DNA of 53,112 nt from a virus (lineage: Duplodnaviria; Caudoviricetes), in IMG/VR virus record IMGVR_UViG_3300016667_000843, positions 1 to 53,112 of that record; one strand, given 5' to 3'. Shown here piece by piece: positions 4,524-20,656 of this stretch. The position numbers were made by a program, and so were the translations under genes. Each line of letters begins with the position of its first letter. Position 1 is the first letter of the stretch. The notes beneath the pieces were generated by a model that did no database searches, was not told where the DNA came from, and worked only from the letters and a program-made list of their open reading frames with translations.

Positions 4524-4898
4524 ATGCCAAGAAAAAAAGTAGACTATAAAATTCCATTCATCAAGGAGAATGATAAAATAAATAATCTTCCAGCCGGGAG
4601 TGTGCCTCACCAAATTGGTCTTTATGAAATGCGTAAACCTAATTGGGAGCAGAAATATGACTGGCGTGAGAATGTTAAATTTGATGCCAACCTAAAGTTT
4701 ATCAATATGTATTATGGTGGTAAGATACTTTGGGAAGACACGGAAACGGGAGCAAGATACTGGATGAACCAGAGTGGTCTTGCCGCTGTATTAAAATCTA
4801 AATCAGTAGTTTATGGAACTGTATTGGGAACATGGATCTTCAAGAAACATGGAACCACTTATAGTATTTTTCCATACATGGAAAAGAGAAGGGGATAA
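4524..4898 (+). CDS. Hypothetical protein
   Basis: 124-aa ORF whose stop codon overlaps the tmRNA 5' end. Confidence 0.6.
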   Translation: MPRKKVDYKIPFIKENDKINNLPAGSVPHQIGLYEMRKPNWEQKYDWRENVKFDANLKFINMYYGGKILWEDTETGARYWMNQSGLAAVLKSKSVVYGTVLGTWIFKKHGTTYSIFPYMEKRRG

Positions 4899-5244
4899 AT
4901 TTGGTTTCGACAGGGGAGTTGAAGATTGATTTGCATAGCAGCGGGCGTTTATGACCGCTTAAAACCGTAAACAACAGTAAGTGCAAACGATAGCTCTTAC
5001 GCTCTTGCTGCTTGAAAGCAAGCGATTTAAAAGATACGCCGTTTGAGGATCCTTAAATCGTCATTAAACAAACTCGACCTTGTAGGGATAGTTCCTACTG
5101 CCAAGGTTTAAATTTTGGAACCATATCATACACAACCTGCTCTTTGGTCAAGTATATGATGGGTAATAAATAAAAGAGCTATGCCATGTGACAACAGATC
5201 TTTTGGATCTCTTCTGGACTCGGGTTCAACTCCCGATATCTCCA
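4891..5244 (+). ncRNA. ssrA: tmRNA; tag (A)ANDSSYALAA
   Basis: 5' GGGGATA pairs with 3' TATCTCC-A including G3.U70; 5' GGTTTCGAC motif; T-arm TCGGG-TTCAACT-CCCGA; tag ORF 4983-5015 GCA AAC GAT AGC TCT TAC GCT CTT GCT GCT TGA. Confidence 0.95.
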
Positions 5245-5247
5245 TTT

Positions 5248-6362: not shown

Positions 6363-7676
6363 ATGTTTTCTAATACACAAGATCAATCATTCGCCCGTCA
6401 TATTCCAAGCTATTTGGATGGAACTCCTGTTCATATTATTGGCAGGGTTCTTTCTTATCGTAAGATGGGCGGCGTTGCTTTCGGTCATATCTCCGATAAT
6501 AGCGATGCAAAGATCCAGTTTGCTTTCAATAAGAAGATGATGGATGAAGCCAACTTTAAGGAATGGTCTGTTATCCCGCATATTGGAGATATTGTTGCCG
6601 TTATTGGTGAGGTATGGACTACCTCTACCGGAGAAAAGACTGTATTGGTCAATAAGGGCTTCCAGAGGCTCCAGAAGGCTTCTGTAGGCTTCCCTGACAA
6701 GTGGCATGGCATGACAGATCCAGAGCTTGTAAGGCGCAAGAGGTGGCTGGAATGCGCTACCAATCCAGAGAGCCGCAAGCTATATCGGAATAGGAGCAAG
6801 CTAATCAATATTATTCGCAACTTCCTTGATGAACAAGATTTCATGGAAGTTGAAACTCCGACACTTACTCCGCAAGCAAGTGGTGCTTTGGCTCGTCCAT
6901 TCGTAACCCATCATAATGCTCTTGATGCGGATTTTTATCTTCGTATTGCGCCCGAGACTTATCTTAAGCGTATGACTGCTGCTGGATTTGATCGTGTATT
7001 TGAGATTGGCAAGCAGTTCCGTAATGAAGGTATTGACCCTTCCCATCTACAGGAGTTTACTTCTCTTGAGTGGTATGCATCATATTGGGATTATTGCGAT
7101 AACATGAAGCTTTTCCGAAATATGCTTTATTATCTTTGGAAGAACTTTGATAGAACAGAAAAGGATATCCTCGCCAAGCTTGAAAGTTGGGCACAAGCAC
7201 CAGTTGTAGAATATCGTCAACTATTCATGGAGCATACTGGACGTAATCCGGATGATATGAGTGCAAAGGAAGCGGATCTATTGTTTAAGACGGCAGTTCG
7301 TCCAAAGCTTATTGATCCAGTATTCATCACAGATTATCCGGCTCATATGTCGCCAATGGCTGCAAGGCATCCCCATGACCCTAATACGGTTCAGCAATGG
7401 CAGTTCATTGTAGACGGGTGGGAGTTGGTTAAGTGTTATACGGAGCTTACTGATCCTGTTCTACAGCGTCAGCTACTTGAGCAGCAGATGCAAGAGCGAG
7501 CGAATGGTGATGATGAAGCCATGATGATTGAGGAAGATTTCCTTGAATGCATGGAGCATGGTATGCCTCCGCAGAGTGGTTGTGGCGTTGGAATTGATCG
7601 TTTGGTATCTCTTCTATGTGGCGTTCCGAACCTACGTGATGTAGTATTCTTCCCTACACTAAAGGCAAATAGCTGA
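6363..7676 (+). CDS. lysS: Lysyl-tRNA synthetase, class II (compact form)
   Basis: OB-fold anticodon domain; FMEVETP, GALARPF, YLRIAPE, FRNEGID, HLQEFT and GMPP..GCGVGIDRL motifs. Confidence 0.95.
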   Translation: MFSNTQDQSFARHIPSYLDGTPVHIIGRVLSYRKMGGVAFGHISDNSDAKIQFAFNKKMMDEANFKEWSVIPHIGDIVAVIGEVWTTSTGEKTVLVNKGFQRLQKASVGFPDKWHGMTDPELVRRKRWLECATNPESRKLYRNRSKLINIIRNFLDEQDFMEVETPTLTPQASGALARPFVTHHNALDADFYLRIAPETYLKRMTAAGFDRVFEIGKQFRNEGIDPSHLQEFTSLEWYASYWDYCDNMKLFRNMLYYLWKNFDRTEKDILAKLESWAQAPVVEYRQLFMEHTGRNPDDMSAKEADLLFKTAVRPKLIDPVFITDYPAHMSPMAARHPHDPNTVQQWQFIVDGWELVKCYTELTDPVLQRQLLEQQMQERANGDDEAMMIEEDFLECMEHGMPPQSGCGVGIDRLVSLLCGVPNLRDVVFFPTLKANS

Positions 7677-8423: not shown

Positions 8424-8496
8424 TTAAGTTTTAATGATGATTGAATAAAATTGAGTTTACATTTCTGAAACTACTTGTTATATTTAATCATCACCT

Positions 8497-9373: not shown

Positions 9374-10212
9374 AGAAGAAAGAAAATAAAATGCCTCGTT
9401 CAAACTCTGTATTTACTATCAGTTCCAGCCGTCTACTTGACAGTATTTGTTCAGAAGAAAAGTTCACGTCAAAGACCGGTCTGGAACAGATTGAGTATCT
9501 AAACAAGTATCGTTCCCGCCGTGGTCTATATCGCTGGGGTCGTAATAGCATCATGGATAACGTTATTGATGATCAGCCTGGAAAGACCGTAACATTTAAT
9601 CCTATTCGTTGGAAGGGACAGCCATGCAATCCCATTACGTTTCGGTATGTAGGTGGCGATATTGAATATAGTATCCGATATCCGGTGCAGAGCCGTCACG
9701 GTTTGGATCCGGATAGCATTAATGGCGTTATCTATGATTTTATGCCTAATGGCGATGCCTATATTGAGCGTGGTATCAAGAGATTTCTTCGTCATGGTGT
9801 GCATAGTCAATGGGGCAGTAATGACGAGCATGATAAGCTTTTCAGATATCTATTCAAGCAGTATGAAAATGCATGGCTTGATCTAAAGCGCCGTAAGGTT
9901 GCAGAGATTAAGGCTACTCTTGATACTGATAGTGTTAATGAGTTTGTAGCAGCAAAGCGTGCCCAGCATACCCAGGCTATCATGGATATTGCAATGTCTG
10001 TTGGCAATCTAACTGCAAAGCTTGAAACCTATCGTAATCGTATCGGCAGCGTTAATACTGCATATGAAGCAGAGAAGATGTTTGAGGAAGTAGAAATGGC
10101 ATTCCGAAACTTCAACTATGTTCAGGATCGTAATCAGAAGCGTCTAAATAAGAATGTTCGGCTTCCTGGCGGTAAGAACGTTAAGAAGCTTGCAGAAAAT
10201 AATCCGGAGTGA
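9370..10212 (+). CDS. Hypothetical protein with C-terminal coiled coil
   Basis: 280-aa ORF with consistent codon usage; alternative ATG at 9391. Confidence 0.7.
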   Translation: MKKKENKMPRSNSVFTISSSRLLDSICSEEKFTSKTGLEQIEYLNKYRSRRGLYRWGRNSIMDNVIDDQPGKTVTFNPIRWKGQPCNPITFRYVGGDIEYSIRYPVQSRHGLDPDSINGVIYDFMPNGDAYIERGIKRFLRHGVHSQWGSNDEHDKLFRYLFKQYENAWLDLKRRKVAEIKATLDTDSVNEFVAAKRAQHTQAIMDIAMSVGNLTAKLETYRNRIGSVNTAYEAEKMFEEVEMAFRNFNYVQDRNQKRLNKNVRLPGGKNVKKLAENNPE

Positions 10213-10266
10213 AAAAATAGTTTACAAAGTTAACTTGCTCCACTATATTTAAAGAGTGAGTTAGAT

Positions 10267-10339
10267 GGGCGTGTAGCTCAATTGGGAGAGCACCGGCTTT
10301 GCAAGCCGGGGGTCATCGGTTCGACCCCGATCATGTCCA
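10267..10339 (+). tRNA. tRNA-Ala(UGC)
   Basis: GGGCGTG/CATGTCC acceptor with G3.U70; CCGGC-TTTGCAA-GCCGG anticodon arm. Confidence 0.96.
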
Positions 10340-10344
10340 CTTCG

Positions 10345-10759
10345 TATCTTGATAACTTAATATTTAGATCCTATCCGATGGACCGTTCATCGTCTTTGAG
10401 GTCCGATAAGGCAATGGGATTAAAGGAGCCGTAAGTAGCCGCCAGCGCACTAATGTTAAGATTATTATTGGGTATAATGCTGGTTGGGGAAAATCAAGAG
10501 CAATCTTGTAAATCGGAAATAATATTATATGTAACTCTAACATGATGATTAGAGATAGTCAGAAGCGACCTGACTAGCCGTGAAGACCAAGGTATTCCTT
10601 TCTTGGTAATAATGGTGACAAAGCCCCTTCTCGGGAAAGAGAACGCAGATAGAAGCGTTAAGCAAGCAAGCCTACTTTATAATGTTTATGGAACTTGTAT
10701 CTATCATTTTTATGAACTCGGTATATTGTATGTGCGATGTATGATATGCTGGGTTTATA
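10345..10759 (+). ncRNA. Candidate large structured non-coding RNA
   Basis: No credible ORF; at least eight helices, including a GCAA tetraloop and a G.U-rich 22-bp hairpin; lies between tRNA genes. Confidence 0.55.
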
Positions 10760-10774
10760 TTCCGCTTTAGCTCA
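10757..10774 (+). repeat. 18-bp direct repeat ATATTCCGCTTTAGCTCA (copy 1; copy 2 at 11186-11203 includes the tRNA-Asn 5' end)
   Basis: Exact match at both positions, flanking the HNH gene. Confidence 0.9.
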
Positions 10775-10836
10775 AGTTTGTGAGCTAACTCATATAACGG
10801 CATAGCATTTTGTGTTATGCCGTTATATTTATTTGT

Positions 10837-11199
10837 ATGAACAAATATGAAACAAAAGTTTGTGTTAAGCATGGAGAAACAGCCTTTGTATTAGAAGGCA
10901 GAGGTTATTATCGTTGCACTAAATGTCGTTCCGAAAAAGTGCAAAACTATCGTGATAATCTTAAAATAAAAGCCGTTGAGTATAAGGGTGGCAAATGCGA
11001 ATGTTGTGGATATAATAAATGCATATCCGCATTAGAGTTTCACCATAAAGAACCAAATGAAAAAGATTTTGCAATAAGTCATAAAGGGTATACAAGAAGC
11101 TGGGAAGTTGTTAGATTAGAGTTAGATAAGTGCTTGATGCTATGTGCAAACTGCCATAGAGAAAAGCATGAAGAAATGAAAACAAATATTCCGCTTTAG
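10837..11199 (+). mobile_element. Free-standing HNH homing endonuclease inserted at a tRNA gene
   Basis: YKGGKCECCGY...LEFHH...ELDKCLMLCANCHRE; flanked by the duplicated tRNA 5' end; its stop codon lies inside the tRNA. Confidence 0.85.
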
Positions 11200-11310
11200 C
11201 TCAGTTGGTAGAGCGTTCGGCTGTGGAGGTTGAATACGTGTTCTGTTGGTGCAAACCCAAAAACCTCAAGGATAACCGGATGGTCCCTGGTTCGAGTCCA
11301 GGAGGCGGAG
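11190..11310 (+). tRNA. tRNA-Asn(GUU) interrupted by a 48-nt insert (11225-11272) in the anticodon
   Basis: TCCGCTT/AGGCGGA-G73 acceptor, GCTC/GAGC D-arm, TTCGG/CCGGA anticodon stem, CCTGG-TTCGAGT-CCAGG T-arm. Removing the insert restores the loop CT-GTT-AA. Confidence 0.8.
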
Positions 11311-11332
11311 TTTTTAGTAAAGTAAATTTTTA

Positions 11333-11369
11333 GACCCTGATGTTTAATGCATCAGGGTTTTTTCTTTTT
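11333..11369 (+). terminator. Intrinsic terminator
   Basis: GACCCTGATG/CATCAGGGTT stem followed by a long T tract. Confidence 0.8.
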
Positions 11370-11380
11370 AAGCTATAGTC

Positions 11381-11818
11381 ATGGGAATAGAAAATCAAAT
11401 AATAGCGTTATCTGGTGGTTTTGATATTATTCACCCTGGTCATATCCGAATGATCAAGGGTGCTCAAAACTTTGGGCGTGTTATGATAATCCTTAACAGC
11501 GACAAATGGGTTTTAAAGAAAAGGGGTATTGTAATGATGCCCTGGGATGAACGTAAAGAAATCTTATTGTCTATAAAGGGTGTAGACAGCGTAGAACGTG
11601 TAGATGATAGTGATGGAACAGTCTGCGAAGCTCTGAAAAGATTACGCCCTAATGTATTTGGTAATGGTGGTATTCGTGGACAGAGGAACACTCCAGAACG
11701 TCAATTGTGTAATGAGTTAGGTATTGCTTGTATTTGGGGAATAGGCGGTGGAGAGCGTGATGTTTATAGCAATGATATTCTCGAGAAGATATATTCTGCC
11801 AAACGACCCAATATTTAA
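11381..11818 (+). CDS. Cytidylyltransferase-family (HIGH) nucleotidyltransferase, RfaE/TagD/RibL-like
   Basis: SGGFDIIHPGH, NSDKW, ERKEIL...VDSV. Confidence 0.88.
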   Translation: MGIENQIIALSGGFDIIHPGHIRMIKGAQNFGRVMIILNSDKWVLKKRGIVMMPWDERKEILLSIKGVDSVERVDDSDGTVCEALKRLRPNVFGNGGIRGQRNTPERQLCNELGIACIWGIGGGERDVYSNDILEKIYSAKRPNI

Positions 11819-12360
11819 TGGTTATGAATAAAAAGTTATTAAGAGAATATATTGAACTAGTAGTTGCAAAAGCTTTAATGGAGGCGGGTACTATTGGTAC
11901 AATATCATCCAGAAGCACTTCATCTGCTATTTCAACTAGTTCAACGCTTGGTAGCACTTCTACTACAAGTTCTGAAAAGACTAAAAGTAGTGGAAAAGAT
12001 ACAACTAGCAGTTCTGACAATGAAGATACAATATCAAATATTGAAGATATGGTTAAATCTAATACAGAAGAAATTAAAGATAATAAAAAATCTATTAATA
12101 CCGCAGCTCATAATATGGCATCATATACCAACAATATGATATCGGCTACAAATAAAACCGCAGATGGCTTAAATAAAGCGGCTCAAGCAACGAAAGATTT
12201 AAATCGTCCTAATAATTCAAAAGACGATATAAGAAATGCAATTGATCAGCAGGAAAAGTCTTTTACAACTGCGGCAACTGGAACCAAACAAAATTCCGGA
12301 GAATTACAGAAAACTTTAACTACATTACAAACACTAGACGGCGCAACAAAAACAAAGTGA
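11818..12360 (+). CDS. Ser/Thr-rich hypothetical protein with LLREYI N-terminal motif (candidate internal head protein)
   Basis: KKLLREYIELVV...LMEA, then low-complexity and coiled-coil sequence. Confidence 0.6.
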   Translation: MVMNKKLLREYIELVVAKALMEAGTIGTISSRSTSSAISTSSTLGSTSTTSSEKTKSSGKDTTSSSDNEDTISNIEDMVKSNTEEIKDNKKSINTAAHNMASYTNNMISATNKTADGLNKAAQATKDLNRPNNSKDDIRNAIDQQEKSFTTAATGTKQNSGELQKTLTTLQTLDGATKTK

Positions 12361-16327: not shown

Positions 16328-16375
16328 AATAAATAGTTTATACACTTGATAGGACATGATATATTAAGTGTATGG

Positions 16376-16846: not shown

Positions 16847-17368
16847 ATGTCAATCGGACCTGATCTTTCGGGATTTACCCGTGATGAAATTTGTGATGCT
16901 TTGGATGAAGTGCGGCAGCCTGTAAGCATTGCGATTTATGGTTCCAAGAATGAGTTTAATATTGGTGGTATGATTAGAACCGCCCATAACTTCCTTGTGC
17001 GAGATATTCATCTTGTAGAGGTTGAGTGGTTTTATGAGAAGGGTGCGCTATCTACTCTACGATTTGAGAAGCGGCATCTTAAGCGTTGGTCTACGCTTGA
17101 TAGTTTCCTTCACGGAATGAAGAACAGGAATATTGTTTCTTTTGAGAAGCGAGATAATCTAAAGTCTTACGATATTCGTTCTTATCGATATCCAGACAAT
17201 CCTATTCTATTTTTTGGTAGTGAGAAGACAGGTGTTCCTGATTCTATTCTGGAAGCTTCTCATAGCGTTGTTACCATTCCTATTCTTGGATTGAATAACG
17301 ATCACAATGTAAGCATTAGTTGTGGGATTGCTCTATACGATTGGTTTGCAAAGAACTGTAAGGTGTGA
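16847..17368 (+). CDS. SpoU/TrmH (SPOUT) RNA 2'-O-methyltransferase
   Basis: NIGGMIRTA, FFGSEKTGV, IPILG...NVSISCGIALY. Confidence 0.88.
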   Translation: MSIGPDLSGFTRDEICDALDEVRQPVSIAIYGSKNEFNIGGMIRTAHNFLVRDIHLVEVEWFYEKGALSTLRFEKRHLKRWSTLDSFLHGMKNRNIVSFEKRDNLKSYDIRSYRYPDNPILFFGSEKTGVPDSILEASHSVVTIPILGLNNDHNVSISCGIALYDWFAKNCKV

Positions 17369-18907: not shown

Positions 18908-20656
18908 TCAATTCTCCTCTTCATTTACTATTACGGAGTTACAGGATAGAGTTAAGCCAATAACGCTGACTGCGTGCTCAAGTGCATATCTTGTAACCTT
19001 AACTGGATCTATTATACCTTCTGCTACCAAGTCTCCATACGTGCCTTTAGCAGCATTATAACCAAAACGTTTATCTTCTTTTTTAACGTTTTCTTTACTC
19101 TTAAAATGTCTGACGGCAGAAACCAAGTCCTCAACATCAGCATTCTCGATATCTACAAACAAAGTTTTATAACCGGTTTGATTTTGCTTTAGTCTTTCTT
19201 TAATAACATCTGATGAAGCACCTGTGTTATTGACAATTGTATTAAGTGGATACTCGCATACATTTGCAATGATTTCTACGCCAGCAAGTTCATCTTGATT
19301 AAACTTGGAGAAGTTACCCAATCCAGCTAGCTTGTCTCCGATTATAAGTTCCCGGAGATGTTGAGCAGCGTAAAAGAGAGCAGTACCGCCCCCAGGAACA
19401 ATACCTTCTTGCGTAGCGGCCAATGTCGCATTTACAGCATCCTCCACTCTATCTTTCTTTTCCAAAATCTCTACTTCAGTAGAACCACCTACCTTGATTA
19501 CTGCAACGCCACCAGAGAGCCTTGCAAGCCTTTTACGATATTTGTCAACGTGTAGGGCGTCCAAGGTCTTATCTTCAATCAAAGACGTTCTTAAAGCCTT
19601 TATACGGTCTTCTAGAGCGGTCTTACGTTCACCATCTAGATCGCTGATGATAGTAGTTGTATTACGCCCTATAATAACCTTTTTAGCTGAACCAAGATGA
19701 TTAAGATTTGCCTTTTTAAGAGTCAAATCAGTTGTGGCATTAAATACGGTGCCGCCTGTTAAGGTTTGAATATCTGAAAGGATATCAGCACGATGTTCAC
19801 CATAGCTTGGAGCCTTAATAGCACAAACCTTTACAACACCCTTTGTCTTATTGACGATAAGAGTGTGAAGTGCTTCGCCTTCTACATCATCTGCGACAAT
19901 AAGAAGTGGACGTGAAGTTTTAAGAACGCCTTCCAACAATCCAATAATATCCTGTATAGAGGATATCTTGTTAGGTGTCATTAGAATATATGGGTTCTCG
20001 AGCTCGCAAGTTGCACGTTCTGAATTTGTAATAAAGAATGGTGAAACGTAGCCGCTATCTAATTGCATACCTTCAACGATATCGAGTGTTGTTTCAACGC
20101 TCTTTGCTGGTTCTACTGTTATGATGCCGTCGTTACCGACACGCTCAATTGCAGTAGCTAATAGTTCGCCAATAGAACGATCGCCATTGGCAGAAATGGT
20201 TCCAACGTTTACAATATCTTCTTTTGAAGAAAGAGGAATAGCAGTCTGTTTAAGATGTTTTACAACAATATCAACCGCATAGTCCATTCCTTTTTTGATA
20301 TCGATAGCAGAACGTCCTGTAGAGATCATCTTAAGACCTTCTGTAAAGATAGCATGACCTAATACAGTAGCAGTAGTAGTTCCATCACCTGCAATATCAT
20401 TTGTTTTAGAAGCAACTTCCTTAAGGAGTTCAGCTCCCATAGACTGAAGCTTGTCTTTAAGATTTATTGATTTAGCTACAGTTACTCCGTCTTTTGTTAT
20501 AAGTGGAGGTCCGGTTTCCATATCGATAATGACAGAGTGACCGGATGGACCCATTGTAGAAGCTACAGCATTCGCAAGGACTGTAGCTCCTTTATATAGT
20601 TCTTCATGGGCTTTAGGAAAGAAAACAACTCGTTGACTGGGAGGTTGATTGCTCAT
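18908..20656 (-). CDS. groEL: Chaperonin GroEL
   Basis: TMGPSG, ITKDGVTVAK, AGDGTTTATV, EGMQLDSGY, LARLSGGVAVIKVGG, EGIVPGGG, GIIDPVKV. Confidence 0.97.
   Translation of the reverse strand: MSNQPPSQRVVFFPKAHEELYKGATVLANAVASTMGPSGHSVIIDMETGPPLITKDGVTVAKSINLKDKLQSMGAELLKEVASKTNDIAGDGTTTATVLGHAIFTEGLKMISTGRSAIDIKKGMDYAVDIVVKHLKQTAIPLSSKEDIVNVGTISANGDRSIGELLATAIERVGNDGIITVEPAKSVETTLDIVEGMQLDSGYVSPFFITNSERATCELENPYILMTPNKISSIQDIIGLLEGVLKTSRPLLIVADDVEGEALHTLIVNKTKGVVKVCAIKAPSYGEHRADILSDIQTLTGGTVFNATTDLTLKKANLNHLGSAKKVIIGRNTTTIISDLDGERKTALEDRIKALRTSLIEDKTLDALHVDKYRKRLARLSGGVAVIKVGGSTEVEILEKKDRVEDAVNATLAATQEGIVPGGGTALFYAAQHLRELIIGDKLAGLGNFSKFNQDELAGVEIIANVCEYPLNTIVNNTGASSDVIKERLKQNQTGYKTLFVDIENADVEDLVSAVRHFKSKENVKKEDKRFGYNAAKGTYGDLVAEGIIDPVKVTRYALEHAVSVIGLTLSCNSVIVNEEEN

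What the first reader, a model, noticed from the sequence alone, without database searches (positions are those of the whole stretch)
10345..10680. ORF-free multi-hairpin RNA downstream of tRNA-Ala
Seen: in a gene-dense genome, more than 300 nt lack an ORF and contain serial helices at 10367-10374/10414-10421, 10441-10447/10478-10484, CAAGA-GCAA-TCTTG (10495-10508), 10535-10554, TAGTCAG/CTGACTA (10556-10576), 10586-10607 and 10628-10643. GGACC (10380) and GGTCC (10400) could form an alternative pairing or pseudoknot. It opens with ATCTTGATAACTTAATA, which resembles the boxA element after rRNA-spacer tRNA-Ala. Known: large ncRNAs such as GOLLD and ROOL occur beside phage tRNAs. I cannot assign it to a known family, so it may be a new class.
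Basis: partly seen in the sequence, partly recalled or inferred. Interest (0 to 1): 0.75.

Follow-up and report, generated by a model that had tools for sequence, protein, structure and literature searches.

The report
New pseudoknotted RNA in phage tRNA cluster
The gene-free stretch after tRNA-Ala encodes a real, roughly 340-base, heavily folded RNA that is conserved in a group of large freshwater phages and matches no catalogued RNA family, so it is a good candidate for a new kind of phage RNA machine whose job is still unknown.

Summary
Window 10367-10706 (+ strand) is the core of a conserved structured non-coding RNA. It has an optional 3' hairpin at 10711-10759.

- **Family:** I found 16 distinct homologous loci, 2 of them partial, in uncultivated viral and metagenome contigs. 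Nearly all lie between tRNA-Ala(UGC) and tRNA-Asn(GUU).
All seven helices, and the GGACC/GGTCC pairing, coincide with helices supported by covariation.
- **Covariation:** On a 14-sequence alignment, 82 proposed pairs are 92.3% canonical, against 32-45% when the partners are slid. Forty pairs change on both sides, against 7-20 slid, and 0 of 500 shuffles reach that number.
- **Tertiary pairings:**
  - a junction-to-loop pseudoknot, strongly covarying;
  - a loop-loop kiss, mostly invariant;
  - a loop-to-3'-tail pairing, mostly invariant.
- **Conservation:** The RNA is more conserved than the neighbouring gene.
- **No known family:** No Rfam 15 family matches it in 6 members scanned. No GenBank phage record matches it. 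No ORF is conserved.
- **Weak points:** Single-sequence folding energy is not better than shuffles. I obtained no expression evidence.

Best reading: a trans-acting, compact RNA released from a tRNA transcript. By genomic setting it resembles ROOL/GOLLD and T4 RNAC/RNAD, but it is not a member of those families. Its function is unknown. The boxA resemblance is weak in the window but strong in relatives.

The parts
10221..10249 (+). Promoter-like site TTTACA-N17-TATATT upstream of tRNA-Ala
   Evidence: Found by the consensus scan. The same extended motif stands before tRNA-Glu and tRNA-Arg. It also stands before tRNA-Ala in L003, L004 and L005, and directly before the RNA in L088. Function is inferred.
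10267..10340 (+). tRNA-Ala(UGC), the 5' neighbour of the RNA
   Evidence: ARAGORN; Rfam tRNA 66.6 bits.
10341..10366 (+). AU-rich leader; degenerate boxA-like position
   Evidence: The window matches 7 of 12 positions of the E. coli rrnH spacer 12-mer, which is chance level. L004, L062, L011 and L005 match 11 of 12; L008 and L039 match 10 of 12. In all of these the match sits 3-4 nt after tRNA-Ala.
10367..10421 (+). 5' domain. H1 is 10367-76 with 10410-21 and has a CA bulge. H2 is 10380-84 with 10400-04 and has a 15-nt loop.
   Evidence: Same fold as the MFE structure in 6 of 6 clades. H1 has 4 of 10 pairs changed on both sides; H2 has 1 of 5.
10422..10428 (+). PK1 5' strand (AAAGGAG), pairing with the H8 loop at 10595-10601
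   Evidence: 7 pairs, 98% paired, 6 of 7 changed on both sides. L005, L014 and L088 carry different complementary sequences.
10429..10437 (+). Invariant single-stranded CCGUAAGUA
   Evidence: Invariant in 14 of 14 rows of A3 and in L061.
10442..10483 (+). H3, a long hairpin whose apical part varies in length and sequence
   Evidence: The closing helix forms in the MFE fold of 14 of 15 members. 3 of 5 aligned pairs change on both sides, despite MAFFT misalignment.
10495..10508 (+). H4 hairpin (GCAA loop in the window; the loop is not conserved)
   Evidence: The hairpin is present in 15 of 15 MFE folds. The stem sequence differs between clades.
10513..10516 (+). Invariant UCGG
   Evidence: Invariant in alignments A2 and A3. 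Its proposed pairing with 10403-07 is not supported: 179 of 500 shuffles do as well.
10535..10554 (+). H5 hairpin, loop CAUGAUGA. The loop bases 10542-48 form PK3 with the H2 loop at 10387-93.
   Evidence: H5 is 100% paired and 4 of 6 pairs change on both sides. PK3 is 99% paired: 5 pairs never vary and 2 vary on one side only.
10556..10576 (+). H6 hairpin with conserved loop AAGCGAC
   Evidence: 98% paired; 4 of 7 pairs change on both sides.
10577..10616 (+). H7 (10577-81 with 10612-16) enclosing H8 (10586-91 with 10602-07). The H8 loop carries the PK1 3' strand.
   Evidence: H7 has 4 of 5 pairs changed on both sides; H8 has 6 of 6.
10617..10628 (+). Near-invariant single strand GACAAAGCCCCU
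   Evidence: A possible 3-bp pairing of CCC with the GGG of the H9 loop is untestable because all positions are invariant.
10629..10658 (+). H9 (10629-32 with 10639-42, loop GGGAAA) and H10 (10643-46 with 10655-58, loop AGAUAGAA)
   Evidence: 100% and 98% paired. 2 of 4 pairs in each change on both sides, in L014 and L088.
10662..10698 (+). H11 (10662-66 with 10694-98) enclosing a variable segment
   Evidence: 100% paired. One pair splits 7 A-U to 7 G-C.
10700..10706 (+). 3' tail UCUAUCA. Bases 10700-05 form PK2 with the H10 loop at 10648-53.
   Evidence: 6 pairs, 100% paired. 5 are invariant and 1 switches A-U to U-A in L006 and L076. In L005, L039, L014 and L061, tRNA-Asn begins 1-5 nt after this tail.
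10711..10759 (+). Optional 3' hairpin (H13)
   Evidence: RNAalifold predicts it in the 10 rows that have it. It is absent in L005, L039, L014 and L061. L088 has a hairpin of different sequence at the same place.
10757..10790 (+). Duplicated 5' fragment of tRNA-Asn, left by the HNH cassette insertion
   Evidence: An 18-nt exact direct repeat stands at 10757-74 and 11186-11203. A contig in run X18 joins 10756 to 11186.
10792..10828 (+). Terminator-like hairpin followed by a T run, the probable 3' end of the transcript in this phage
   Evidence: 17-pair stem plus T-rich tail. L008 has an equivalent hairpin of different sequence before its HNH gene. Function is inferred.

Best explanation
Window 10367-10706 (+ strand) encodes a stand-alone, compactly folded non-coding RNA of about 340 nt. 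It belongs to a previously uncatalogued family carried by a lineage of large T4-like freshwater phages.

**Shown**
- The sequence and about 14 helices are conserved.
- The helices are locked together by at least one strongly covarying pseudoknot: the junction at 10422-28 pairs with the H8 loop.
- Two further complementary pairings are mostly invariant: H2 loop with H5 loop, and H10 loop with the 3' tail.
- The + strand is the functional one.

**Inferred**
- The RNA is transcribed from the phage's tRNA-type promoter together with tRNA-Ala.
- In relatives a boxA-like element may protect this long untranslated transcript from termination.
- The RNA is cut free by the enzymes that mature the flanking tRNAs. 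RNase P acting at the tRNA-Asn 5' end would define the 3' end in relatives. In this window an inserted HNH cassette supplies a terminator instead.
- It then acts in trans as a folded RNA particle. Its invariant unpaired segments (CCGUAAGUA, UCGG, AAGCGAC, GACAAAGCCCCU, GGGAAA) would contact a partner. That partner is most likely a component of translation or tRNA metabolism, or further copies of the RNA itself, as in ROOL and GOLLD.
For: **Homologues**
- 16 distinct loci, 2 of them partial, were recovered by neighbour-gene synteny and by motif scans.
- In most members with both flanks in view the RNA lies between tRNA-Ala(UGC) and tRNA-Asn(GUU). In L006 and L076 ARAGORN calls no tRNA-Ala, but L006 shows a tRNA-like UGC sequence there. 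L088 is the exception.

**Conservation.** RNA core identity against flanking-gene DNA identity:

| Relative | RNA core | Flanking gene |
|---|---|---|
| L003 | 95% | 92% |
| L004 | 91% | 72% |
| L005 | 70% | 62% |
| L006 | 68% | 58% |
| L014 | 65% | 55% |

**Structure**
- 82 pairs are 92.3% canonical, against 32-45% when slid. Forty pairs change on both sides, against 7-20 slid. 0 of 500 shuffles reach this.
- PK1 has 6 of 7 pairs changed on both sides.
- The 5' domain folds the same way in 6 of 6 clades.

**Strand.** Many conserved G-U pairs, for example GU in 12 of 14 rows at columns 327/371, would be C-A on the other strand.

**Not coding.** No frame is conserved.

**Transcription signals**
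- A promoter-like motif is shared with other tRNA genes.
- In L088 the same motif sits directly upstream of the RNA, with no tRNA-Ala before it.
- A terminator-like hairpin stands at 10792-10828.
- A boxA-like 12-mer matches 10-11 of 12 positions in 6 of 14 members. At least 10 of 12 occurs in 0.3% of random windows.

**Not tied in cis to tRNA-Asn.** In the window, L006, L008 and L088, endonuclease cassettes separate the RNA from tRNA-Asn.
Against: - Folding energy of the whole window sequence is no better than shuffles, with z -0.66.
- I saw no evidence of a transcript. The only clearly RNA-derived run (X20) covered just generic tRNA-Ala sequence and a low-depth piece of the upstream gene. 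All runs were assembled contigs, which cannot show RNA ends.
- The 14 aligned sequences fall into only about 6-7 clades, so counts are not independent. The shuffle control is not a probability.
- PK2 and PK3 rest mainly on invariant complementary bases. 5 of 6 and 5 of 7 pairs never vary, and PK3 has no pair changed on both sides in the alignment.
- Trans action, the partner and the processing route are all inferred.
- The family is narrow: 9 IMG/VR contigs including the window, and no GenBank phage.
Confidence: 0.6

Rival explanations
1. It is a ribozyme. It might be a divergent or reduced tRNA-processing catalyst (RNase P-like), or a new self-processing RNA that trims the tRNA precursor in which it is embedded.
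For: - Its size of about 340 nt, its multiple pseudoknots and its long invariant single-stranded segments are typical of large ribozymes.
- It is embedded between tRNAs.
Against: - No RNase P, group I, group II or small self-cleaver model matches at E<=10 in 6 members.
- The group I model does detect the intron in the neighbouring tRNA-Asn of L088 at 62.3 bits, so the search works in this sequence context.
- The order of helices does not resemble RNase P as I recall it. That comparison was not tested.
Confidence: 0.15
2. It is a cis-acting leader of tRNA-Asn. It would control read-through, processing or folding of the downstream tRNA, with the optional 3' hairpin acting as an attenuator.
For: - In 4 members (L005, L039, L014, L061) the RNA ends 1-5 nt before tRNA-Asn.
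- A hairpin followed by a U-rich stretch precedes the tRNA in 10 members.
- In L088 the RNA has lost tRNA-Ala but is still upstream of tRNA-Asn.
Against: - About 340 nt with more than 14 helices is far beyond known leaders.
- The hairpin is absent in 4 members.
- In the window, L006, L008 and L088, an endonuclease cassette lies between the RNA and the intact tRNA-Asn, yet the RNA stays conserved. In the window a strong terminator-like hairpin lies there as well.
Confidence: 0.1
3. It is a mimic or remnant of ribosomal RNA, for example a decoy for an rRNA-binding factor. The arrangement tRNA-Ala, boxA-like element, structured RNA recalls an rRNA operon spacer.
For: - A boxA-like 12-mer stands directly after tRNA-Ala in relatives, matching 10-11 of 12 positions of the E. 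coli rrnH spacer sequence.
- Several short words are shared with E. coli rRNA, for example an 11-mer in 16S.
Against: - The family profile finds nothing in the E. coli rrnH operon, even with all filters off and E<=1000.
- Shared 8-mers and 9-mers are not above shuffles. There are 36 against 29.5 +/- 6.8, and 14 against 7.8 +/- 3.7, with 33 and 17 of 200 shuffles reaching the observed counts. Shared 7-mers are marginally high, at 122 against 104 +/- 10, with 6 of 200 shuffles reaching it.
- No Rfam rRNA model matches.
- Only E. coli rRNA was compared, and it is not the unknown host's.
Confidence: 0.03
4. It has no function of its own. It would be a slowly decaying spacer, a pseudogene or a homing-endonuclease target region, kept similar by recent common descent.
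For: - The family is narrow and many blocks are simply invariant.
- The site next to it is a hot spot for endonuclease cassettes.
- Folding energy is unremarkable.
Against: - It is more conserved than the adjacent protein gene at every distance sampled.
- 40 pairs show changes on both sides that keep pairing, including complete sequence swaps in PK1.
- Length variation is confined to hairpin tips.
Confidence: 0.03

Closest known systems
ROOL and GOLLD RNAs (large ornate RNAs of phages and prophages)
   Same: - They are encoded in phages and prophages, often near tRNA islands.
- They are highly complex, with multiple pseudoknots and kissing loops.
- Their function is unknown.
- They have a poorly conserved internal segment.

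These points come from passages of PMC12286853 read. The RNA here likewise sits inside a phage tRNA cluster and has at least three tertiary pairings. Its H3 tip is hypervariable.
   Different: - The Rfam ROOL and GOLLD models were among the 4227 scanned and gave no match.
- This RNA is about 340 nt. GOLLD often exceeds 800 nt, and ROOL is about 580 nt as I recall.
- The helices and conserved sequences are unrelated.
- Multimer formation is untested here.
Phage T4 RNAC and RNAD
   Same: They are small stable RNAs transcribed from the tRNA region of a T4-type phage, with unknown roles. The sources are a passage of PMC3014915 and a passage of PMC9697503. The window is also from a T4-type phage, with terminase and portal matches.
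   Different: - blastn finds no match between the RNA and any of 50,697 GenBank phage records, a set I assume includes T4.
- This RNA is much larger and more elaborately folded. The T4 RNA sizes of about 120-140 nt are recalled, not checked.
Bacterial RNase P RNA
   Same: It has a similar size, a pseudoknotted core with invariant single-stranded joints, and a functional link to tRNA precursors.
   Different: No Rfam RNase P model matches at E<=10 in 6 members. I found no counterpart of the conserved catalytic-core pairing by eye, and that comparison rests on recall.
Group I intron
   Same: It has a similar size, and it lies next to a tRNA-Asn that carries a true group I intron in relatives.
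   Different: It lies between two complete tRNA genes rather than inside one. The Rfam group I model does not match it, while the same scan scores the neighbouring intron at 62.3 bits.

Membership tests
ROOL / GOLLD | Match to the Rfam covariance model of the family | tested here: not met
   No hit at gathering score or at E<=10 in the window, L020, L011, L061, L019 or L088.
ROOL / GOLLD | Encoded in phage or prophage near tRNA islands | tested here: met
   The RNA lies between tRNA-Ala and tRNA-Asn in a T4-like phage contig with 8 tRNAs and a tmRNA. The feature is as described in PMC12286853.
ROOL / GOLLD | Assembly into RNA-only multimeric cages | not testable with these tools
   This needs native gels, SEC or cryo-EM of the transcript.
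RNase P RNA | Match to Rfam RNase P models | tested here: not met
   No RNase P hit at E<=10 in 6 members.
RNase P RNA | Cleaves pre-tRNA 5' leaders | not testable with these tools
   A biochemical assay is required.
Group I intron | Match to Rfam Intron_gpI and insertion within a host gene with splice sites | tested here: not met
   No hit in the RNA. The same model scores 62.3 bits (gathering score 50) on the tRNA-Asn intron in L088, which serves as a positive control. The RNA lies between two intact tRNAs.
T4 RNAC / RNAD | Sequence similarity to the T4 tRNA-region RNAs | tested here: not met
   blastn in distant mode found no match between window 10345-10712 and 50,697 phage records.
boxA antitermination element (leader, 10341-10366) | Close match to a bacterial rRNA-spacer boxA sequence just downstream of tRNA-Ala | tested here: inconclusive
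   The window matches 7 of 12 positions, which is chance level. Six of 14 relatives match 10-11 of 12 at the same position, and at least 10 of 12 occurs in 0.3% of random windows. That the E. coli 12-mer is boxA is recalled; it is not annotated in the record. NusB/NusE binding is untested.
Protein-coding gene | An open frame conserved among homologues | tested here: not met
   The longest stop-free runs are 13-84 codons, in different frames in different members. Alternative stop readings do not help.

The most novel reading that the evidence does not exclude
This is a new class of large ornate phage RNA. One possibility is that it self-assembles into an RNA-only multimer: the invariant UCAUC/GAUGA loop-loop pairing would then form between molecules, as happened with kissing loops first read as tertiary contacts in ROOL. 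The other is that it is a new ribozyme acting on tRNA precursors or on the translation apparatus of the infected cell.
Probability: 0.25. Interest if true: 0.9.

Novelty: new member of a known kind. Interest (0 to 1): 0.72.

Why it matters
Large, intricately folded RNAs without a known function are rare; only about a dozen classes are known. Each one solved so far has revealed unexpected biology, either catalysis or giant RNA-only cages.

- **What this candidate offers.** It is compact, at about 340 nt, so it is easy to transcribe for probing or cryo-EM. It has at least one well-proven pseudoknot. It sits in the tRNA cluster of large phages that also carry a tmRNA, a tRNA synthetase homologue and RNA methylase genes.
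- **What it could help answer.** It gives a tractable entry to an old question: why phages place stable RNAs of unknown function among their tRNA genes. That question has been open since T4 RNAC and RNAD.
- **Practical use.** It would add a family for annotating freshwater viral metagenomes.

Tried and rejected
1. **Rfam 15.** The gathering scan of the whole window and E<=10 scans of the region and of 5 other members gave nothing inside the RNA. The only exceptions are a 13.7-bit snoRNA match and a 22.9-bit minus-strand match at E 7.5-9.7.
2. **Folding energy.** It was not significant for the whole RNA on either strand.
3. **Recoded stops (TAG=Q, TGA=W).** No conserved frame appeared.
4. **Sequencing runs.**
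   - Twenty runs from 13 studies hold part of window 9400-11900.
   - Four were laid and all are contigs.
   - The one clearly RNA-derived run (X20) covered only generic tRNA-Ala sequence and a depth-2 piece of the upstream gene. The lack of cover on the RNA shows nothing.
   - X18 and X19 are probably DNA.
5. **rRNA mimicry.** The profile search of the E. coli rrnH operon found nothing. Shared 8-mers and 9-mers were not above shuffles. Shared 7-mers were only marginally high, with 6 of 200 shuffles reaching the observed count.
6. **Pairing of UCGG (10512-16) with 10403-07.** 179 of 500 shuffles do as well, and it clashes with H2.
7. **Complements of invariant loops elsewhere in the window.** The complements of AAGCGAC and CCGUAAGUA occur at or below chance.
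8. **Neighbouring proteins as clues.** The 280-aa, 146-aa, 217-aa and 180-aa neighbours have no Pfam or PHROG family. The atlas search gave no usable hit. The class II synthetase homologue is LysRS-like, not AsnRS.
9. **Wider motif scans.**
   - 65 of 73 metagenome matches were non-members by nhmmer, mostly one coding gene in gut samples by eye.
   - 5 of 5 matches in 185,579 species genomes were chance.
   - A relaxed scan of viral contigs gave 8 known members and 8 non-members.
10. **GenBank phages.** No match.
12. **Scripts.** The script machine was lost. The planned per-sequence folding of the 5' domain was done with strand folding instead.
13. **Resemblances recalled from memory.** Likenesses to RNase P, 5S rRNA, SRP RNA and group II domain 5 motifs were considered. 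I dropped them because no model or profile search supports them.
Full report
**Setting**

The window is a complete IMG/VR viral contig of 53,112 bases, judged 14% complete. It comes from a T4-type phage:
- Terminase and portal match T4-like Pfam families.
- It carries a tmRNA and eight tRNA genes. Seven RNA genes were found by ARAGORN, and Rfam adds an interrupted tRNA at 11190-11310.

The finding lies between tRNA-Ala(UGC) at 10267-10340 and an HNH endonuclease ORF at 10837-11199.

**Is the region free of genes?**

Yes.
- Only short ORFs of 30-66 aa overlap it.
- Reading TAG or TGA as sense codons opens nothing convincing.
- In 15 homologues, the longest stop-free runs are 13-84 codons and fall in different frames.

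**Is it a known RNA?**

No.
- No Rfam 15 family matches inside it at gathering thresholds.
- At E<=10 the only matches inside it are at chance level. The window has a 13.7-bit snoRNA match at E 7.5. L088 has a 22.9-bit minus-strand match at E 9.7. L020, L011, L061 and L019 have none.
- The scan is sensitive in this context. It scores the group I intron in the neighbouring tRNA-Asn of L088 at 62.3 bits.
- blastn against 50,697 GenBank phage records finds nothing.

**Does it fold better than chance?**

Not by energy alone.
- The whole RNA has z -0.66 on the + strand and -0.80 on the - strand.
- The 5' domain alone gives z -1.6 to -2.5 in six clades.

**Homologues**

- Searching with the upstream 280-aa protein gave four related viral contigs. 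Three have the order tRNA-Ala, a 350-420 nt spacer, then tRNA-Asn(GUU).
- The spacer aligned with long identical blocks and obvious compensatory changes.
- Motif scans and an nhmmer profile then raised the family to 16 distinct loci (window, L003, L004, L005, L006, L008, L011, L014, L019, L020, L039, L061, L062, L074, L076, L088). L061 and L074 are partial.
- Many scan hits were not members:
  - 1 of 7.
  - 65 of 73 in the metagenome scan, mostly one coding gene.
  - 5 of 5 in the genome collection.
  - 8 of 16 in a relaxed viral scan.
- The family is therefore narrow. It comprises 9 IMG/VR contigs including the window, plus 7 metagenome-only contigs, and I found it in no isolate phage and no cellular genome.
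- An independent aquatic metagenome (run X2) holds a 467-base contig covering 10349-10774 with 3 differences.

**Conservation**

RNA core identity to the window exceeds the DNA identity of the adjacent gene at every distance sampled:

| Relative | RNA core | Adjacent gene |
|---|---|---|
| L003 | 95% | 92% |
| L004 | 91% | 72% |
| L005 | 70% | 62% |
| L006 | 68% | 58% |
| L014 | 65% | 55% |

**Structure**

On a 14-sequence MAFFT alignment (A3) I wrote a structure derived from the window and the comparative pattern.
- The 69 pairs of H1-H11 plus PK1 are 90.9% canonical, against 33-43% with partners slid by 1-3 columns.
- 39 pairs show changes on both sides, against 7-20 slid and 18.9 +/- 2.7 in shuffles. 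0 of 500 shuffles reach the observed values.
- Adding PK2 and PK3 gives 82 pairs, 92.3% paired, with 40 pairs changed on both sides.
- The lower figures for H3, H4 and H8 (71-84% paired) come mainly from MAFFT misalignment of variable hairpins and of the L006/L076 5' domain.
- Folded one at a time, 14 of 15 members close H3 at the same place and 15 of 15 form H4. The 5' domain has the same shape in 6 of 6 clades.
- Abundant conserved G-U pairs fix the + strand as the functional one.

**Tertiary pairings**

- **PK1** pairs 10422-28 with the H8 loop at 10595-10601. It is the best proven: 6 of 7 pairs change on both sides, and whole-sequence swaps occur in L005/L039, L014 and L088.
- **PK3** pairs the H2 loop (10387-93) with the H5 loop (10542-48).
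  - Five pairs are invariant and two vary while staying paired.
  - The alignment shows one-sided changes only.
  - Read by eye from the sequences, some members show what look like two-sided changes at the last two pairs. A gap column in A3 makes this uncertain.
- **PK2** pairs the H10 loop (10648-53) with the 3' tail (10700-05). Five pairs are invariant and one switches A-U to U-A in L006/L076.
- A possible small pairing of CCC (10625-27) with the GGG of the H9 loop is invariant, so it is untestable.
- A proposed pairing of UCGG with 10403-07 is not supported.

**Transcription and processing (inferred)**

- *Promoter.* A promoter-like TTTACA-N17-TATATT with a conserved upstream extension precedes tRNA-Glu, tRNA-Ala and tRNA-Arg in the window. 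It also precedes tRNA-Ala in relatives.
- *Independent unit in L088.* There the RNA follows a protein gene instead of tRNA-Ala, and the same motif stands about 50-60 nt upstream of the RNA. This argues for an independently transcribed unit on the + strand.
- *3' end.* In L005, L039, L014 and L061, tRNA-Asn starts 1-5 nt after the PK2 tail. RNase P cleavage would therefore define the RNA's 3' end there.
- *HNH cassette in the window.*
  - An HNH cassette has inserted with an 18-nt duplication of the tRNA-Asn 5' end.
  - It brings a terminator-like hairpin at 10792-10828.
  - A contig in run X18 joins 10756 to 11186, which is an allele without the cassette.
- *boxA-like element.*
  - The leader after tRNA-Ala resembles the E. 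coli rrnH spacer 12-mer only weakly in the window, at 7 of 12.
  - It matches 10-11 of 12 in six relatives at the same position.
  - At least 10 of 12 occurs in 0.3% of random windows.
  - That this E. coli sequence is boxA is my recollection.

**What it is like**

- By setting and complexity, the closest analogues are ROOL and GOLLD. They are phage and prophage RNAs near tRNA islands, with multiple pseudoknots and kissing loops and no known function (passages of PMC12286853).
- T4 RNAC and RNAD are the other analogues (passages of PMC3014915 and PMC9697503).
- It is not a member of any of these by sequence or model.
- RNase P-like, group I, rRNA-mimic and cis-leader readings were considered., and the endonuclease-cassette argument, speak against them.

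**Novelty caveat**

A catalogue of 8,495 candidate structured RNAs predicted from IMG/VR exists (PMC10690425). I read its abstract and passages. Three literature searches found no description of it.

**Verdict**

This is a genuine, strongly supported structured RNA family that is new to Rfam. It is best filed as a new member of the small group of large phage tRNA-island RNAs of unknown function. Expression, partner and activity remain to be shown.

Noticed in passing
window 10837-11199, repeats at 10757-10774 and 11186-11203: An HNH homing-endonuclease gene (PHROG HNH, E 3.5e-31) is inserted just upstream of tRNA-Asn. The insertion carries an exact 18-nt duplication of the tRNA 5' end. A contig in run X18 joins the two repeat copies, which is an allele without the cassette. 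L006, L008 and L088 carry intact or decayed endonuclease cassettes at the same site.
   Followed up: partly
window 11190-11310; L003; L014 3169-3440; L088 9876-10150: tRNA-Asn(GUU) is interrupted in its anticodon loop by a hairpin-forming insertion of about 48-51 nt in the window and L003. At the same site L088 has a true group I intron (RF00028, 62.3 bits). L014 has a near-identical insertion of about 230 nt. Contigs in runs X18 and X2 skip exactly 48 nt (11224 to 11273), which is an uninterrupted allele. Whether the short insertion is spliced is unknown.
   Followed up: partly
window 4891-5247: The phage encodes a tmRNA (Rfam 128.8 bits; tag peptide ANDSSYALAA).
   Followed up: no
window 8456-8484, 10221-10249, about 16328-16360; L088 9262-9290: A promoter-like motif recurs (TAGTTTACA, 17 nt, TATATT). 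It stands before tRNA-Glu, tRNA-Ala and tRNA-Arg, and before the RNA itself in L088. It is probably the phage's promoter for stable-RNA genes.
   Followed up: partly
L039 12468-12548; L076 3990-4071; L088 7560-7641: ARAGORN reports a tRNA-like gene with a four-base anticodon (ttta) in three related contigs. It could be a frameshift-suppressor-type or otherwise unusual tRNA. None was reported in the window.
   Followed up: no
window 6363-7676, 16847-17368, 18908-20656: The phage carries a LysRS-like class II tRNA synthetase homologue, which scores just under NCBIfam cut-offs. It also carries a SpoU-family RNA 2'-O-methyltransferase and a Cpn60-type chaperonin.
   Followed up: partly
L006 4955-5030: ARAGORN calls no tRNA-Ala upstream of the RNA in L006 or L076. 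The L006 sequence nevertheless shows a tRNA-like gene with a UGC anticodon and an unusual T arm.
   Followed up: no
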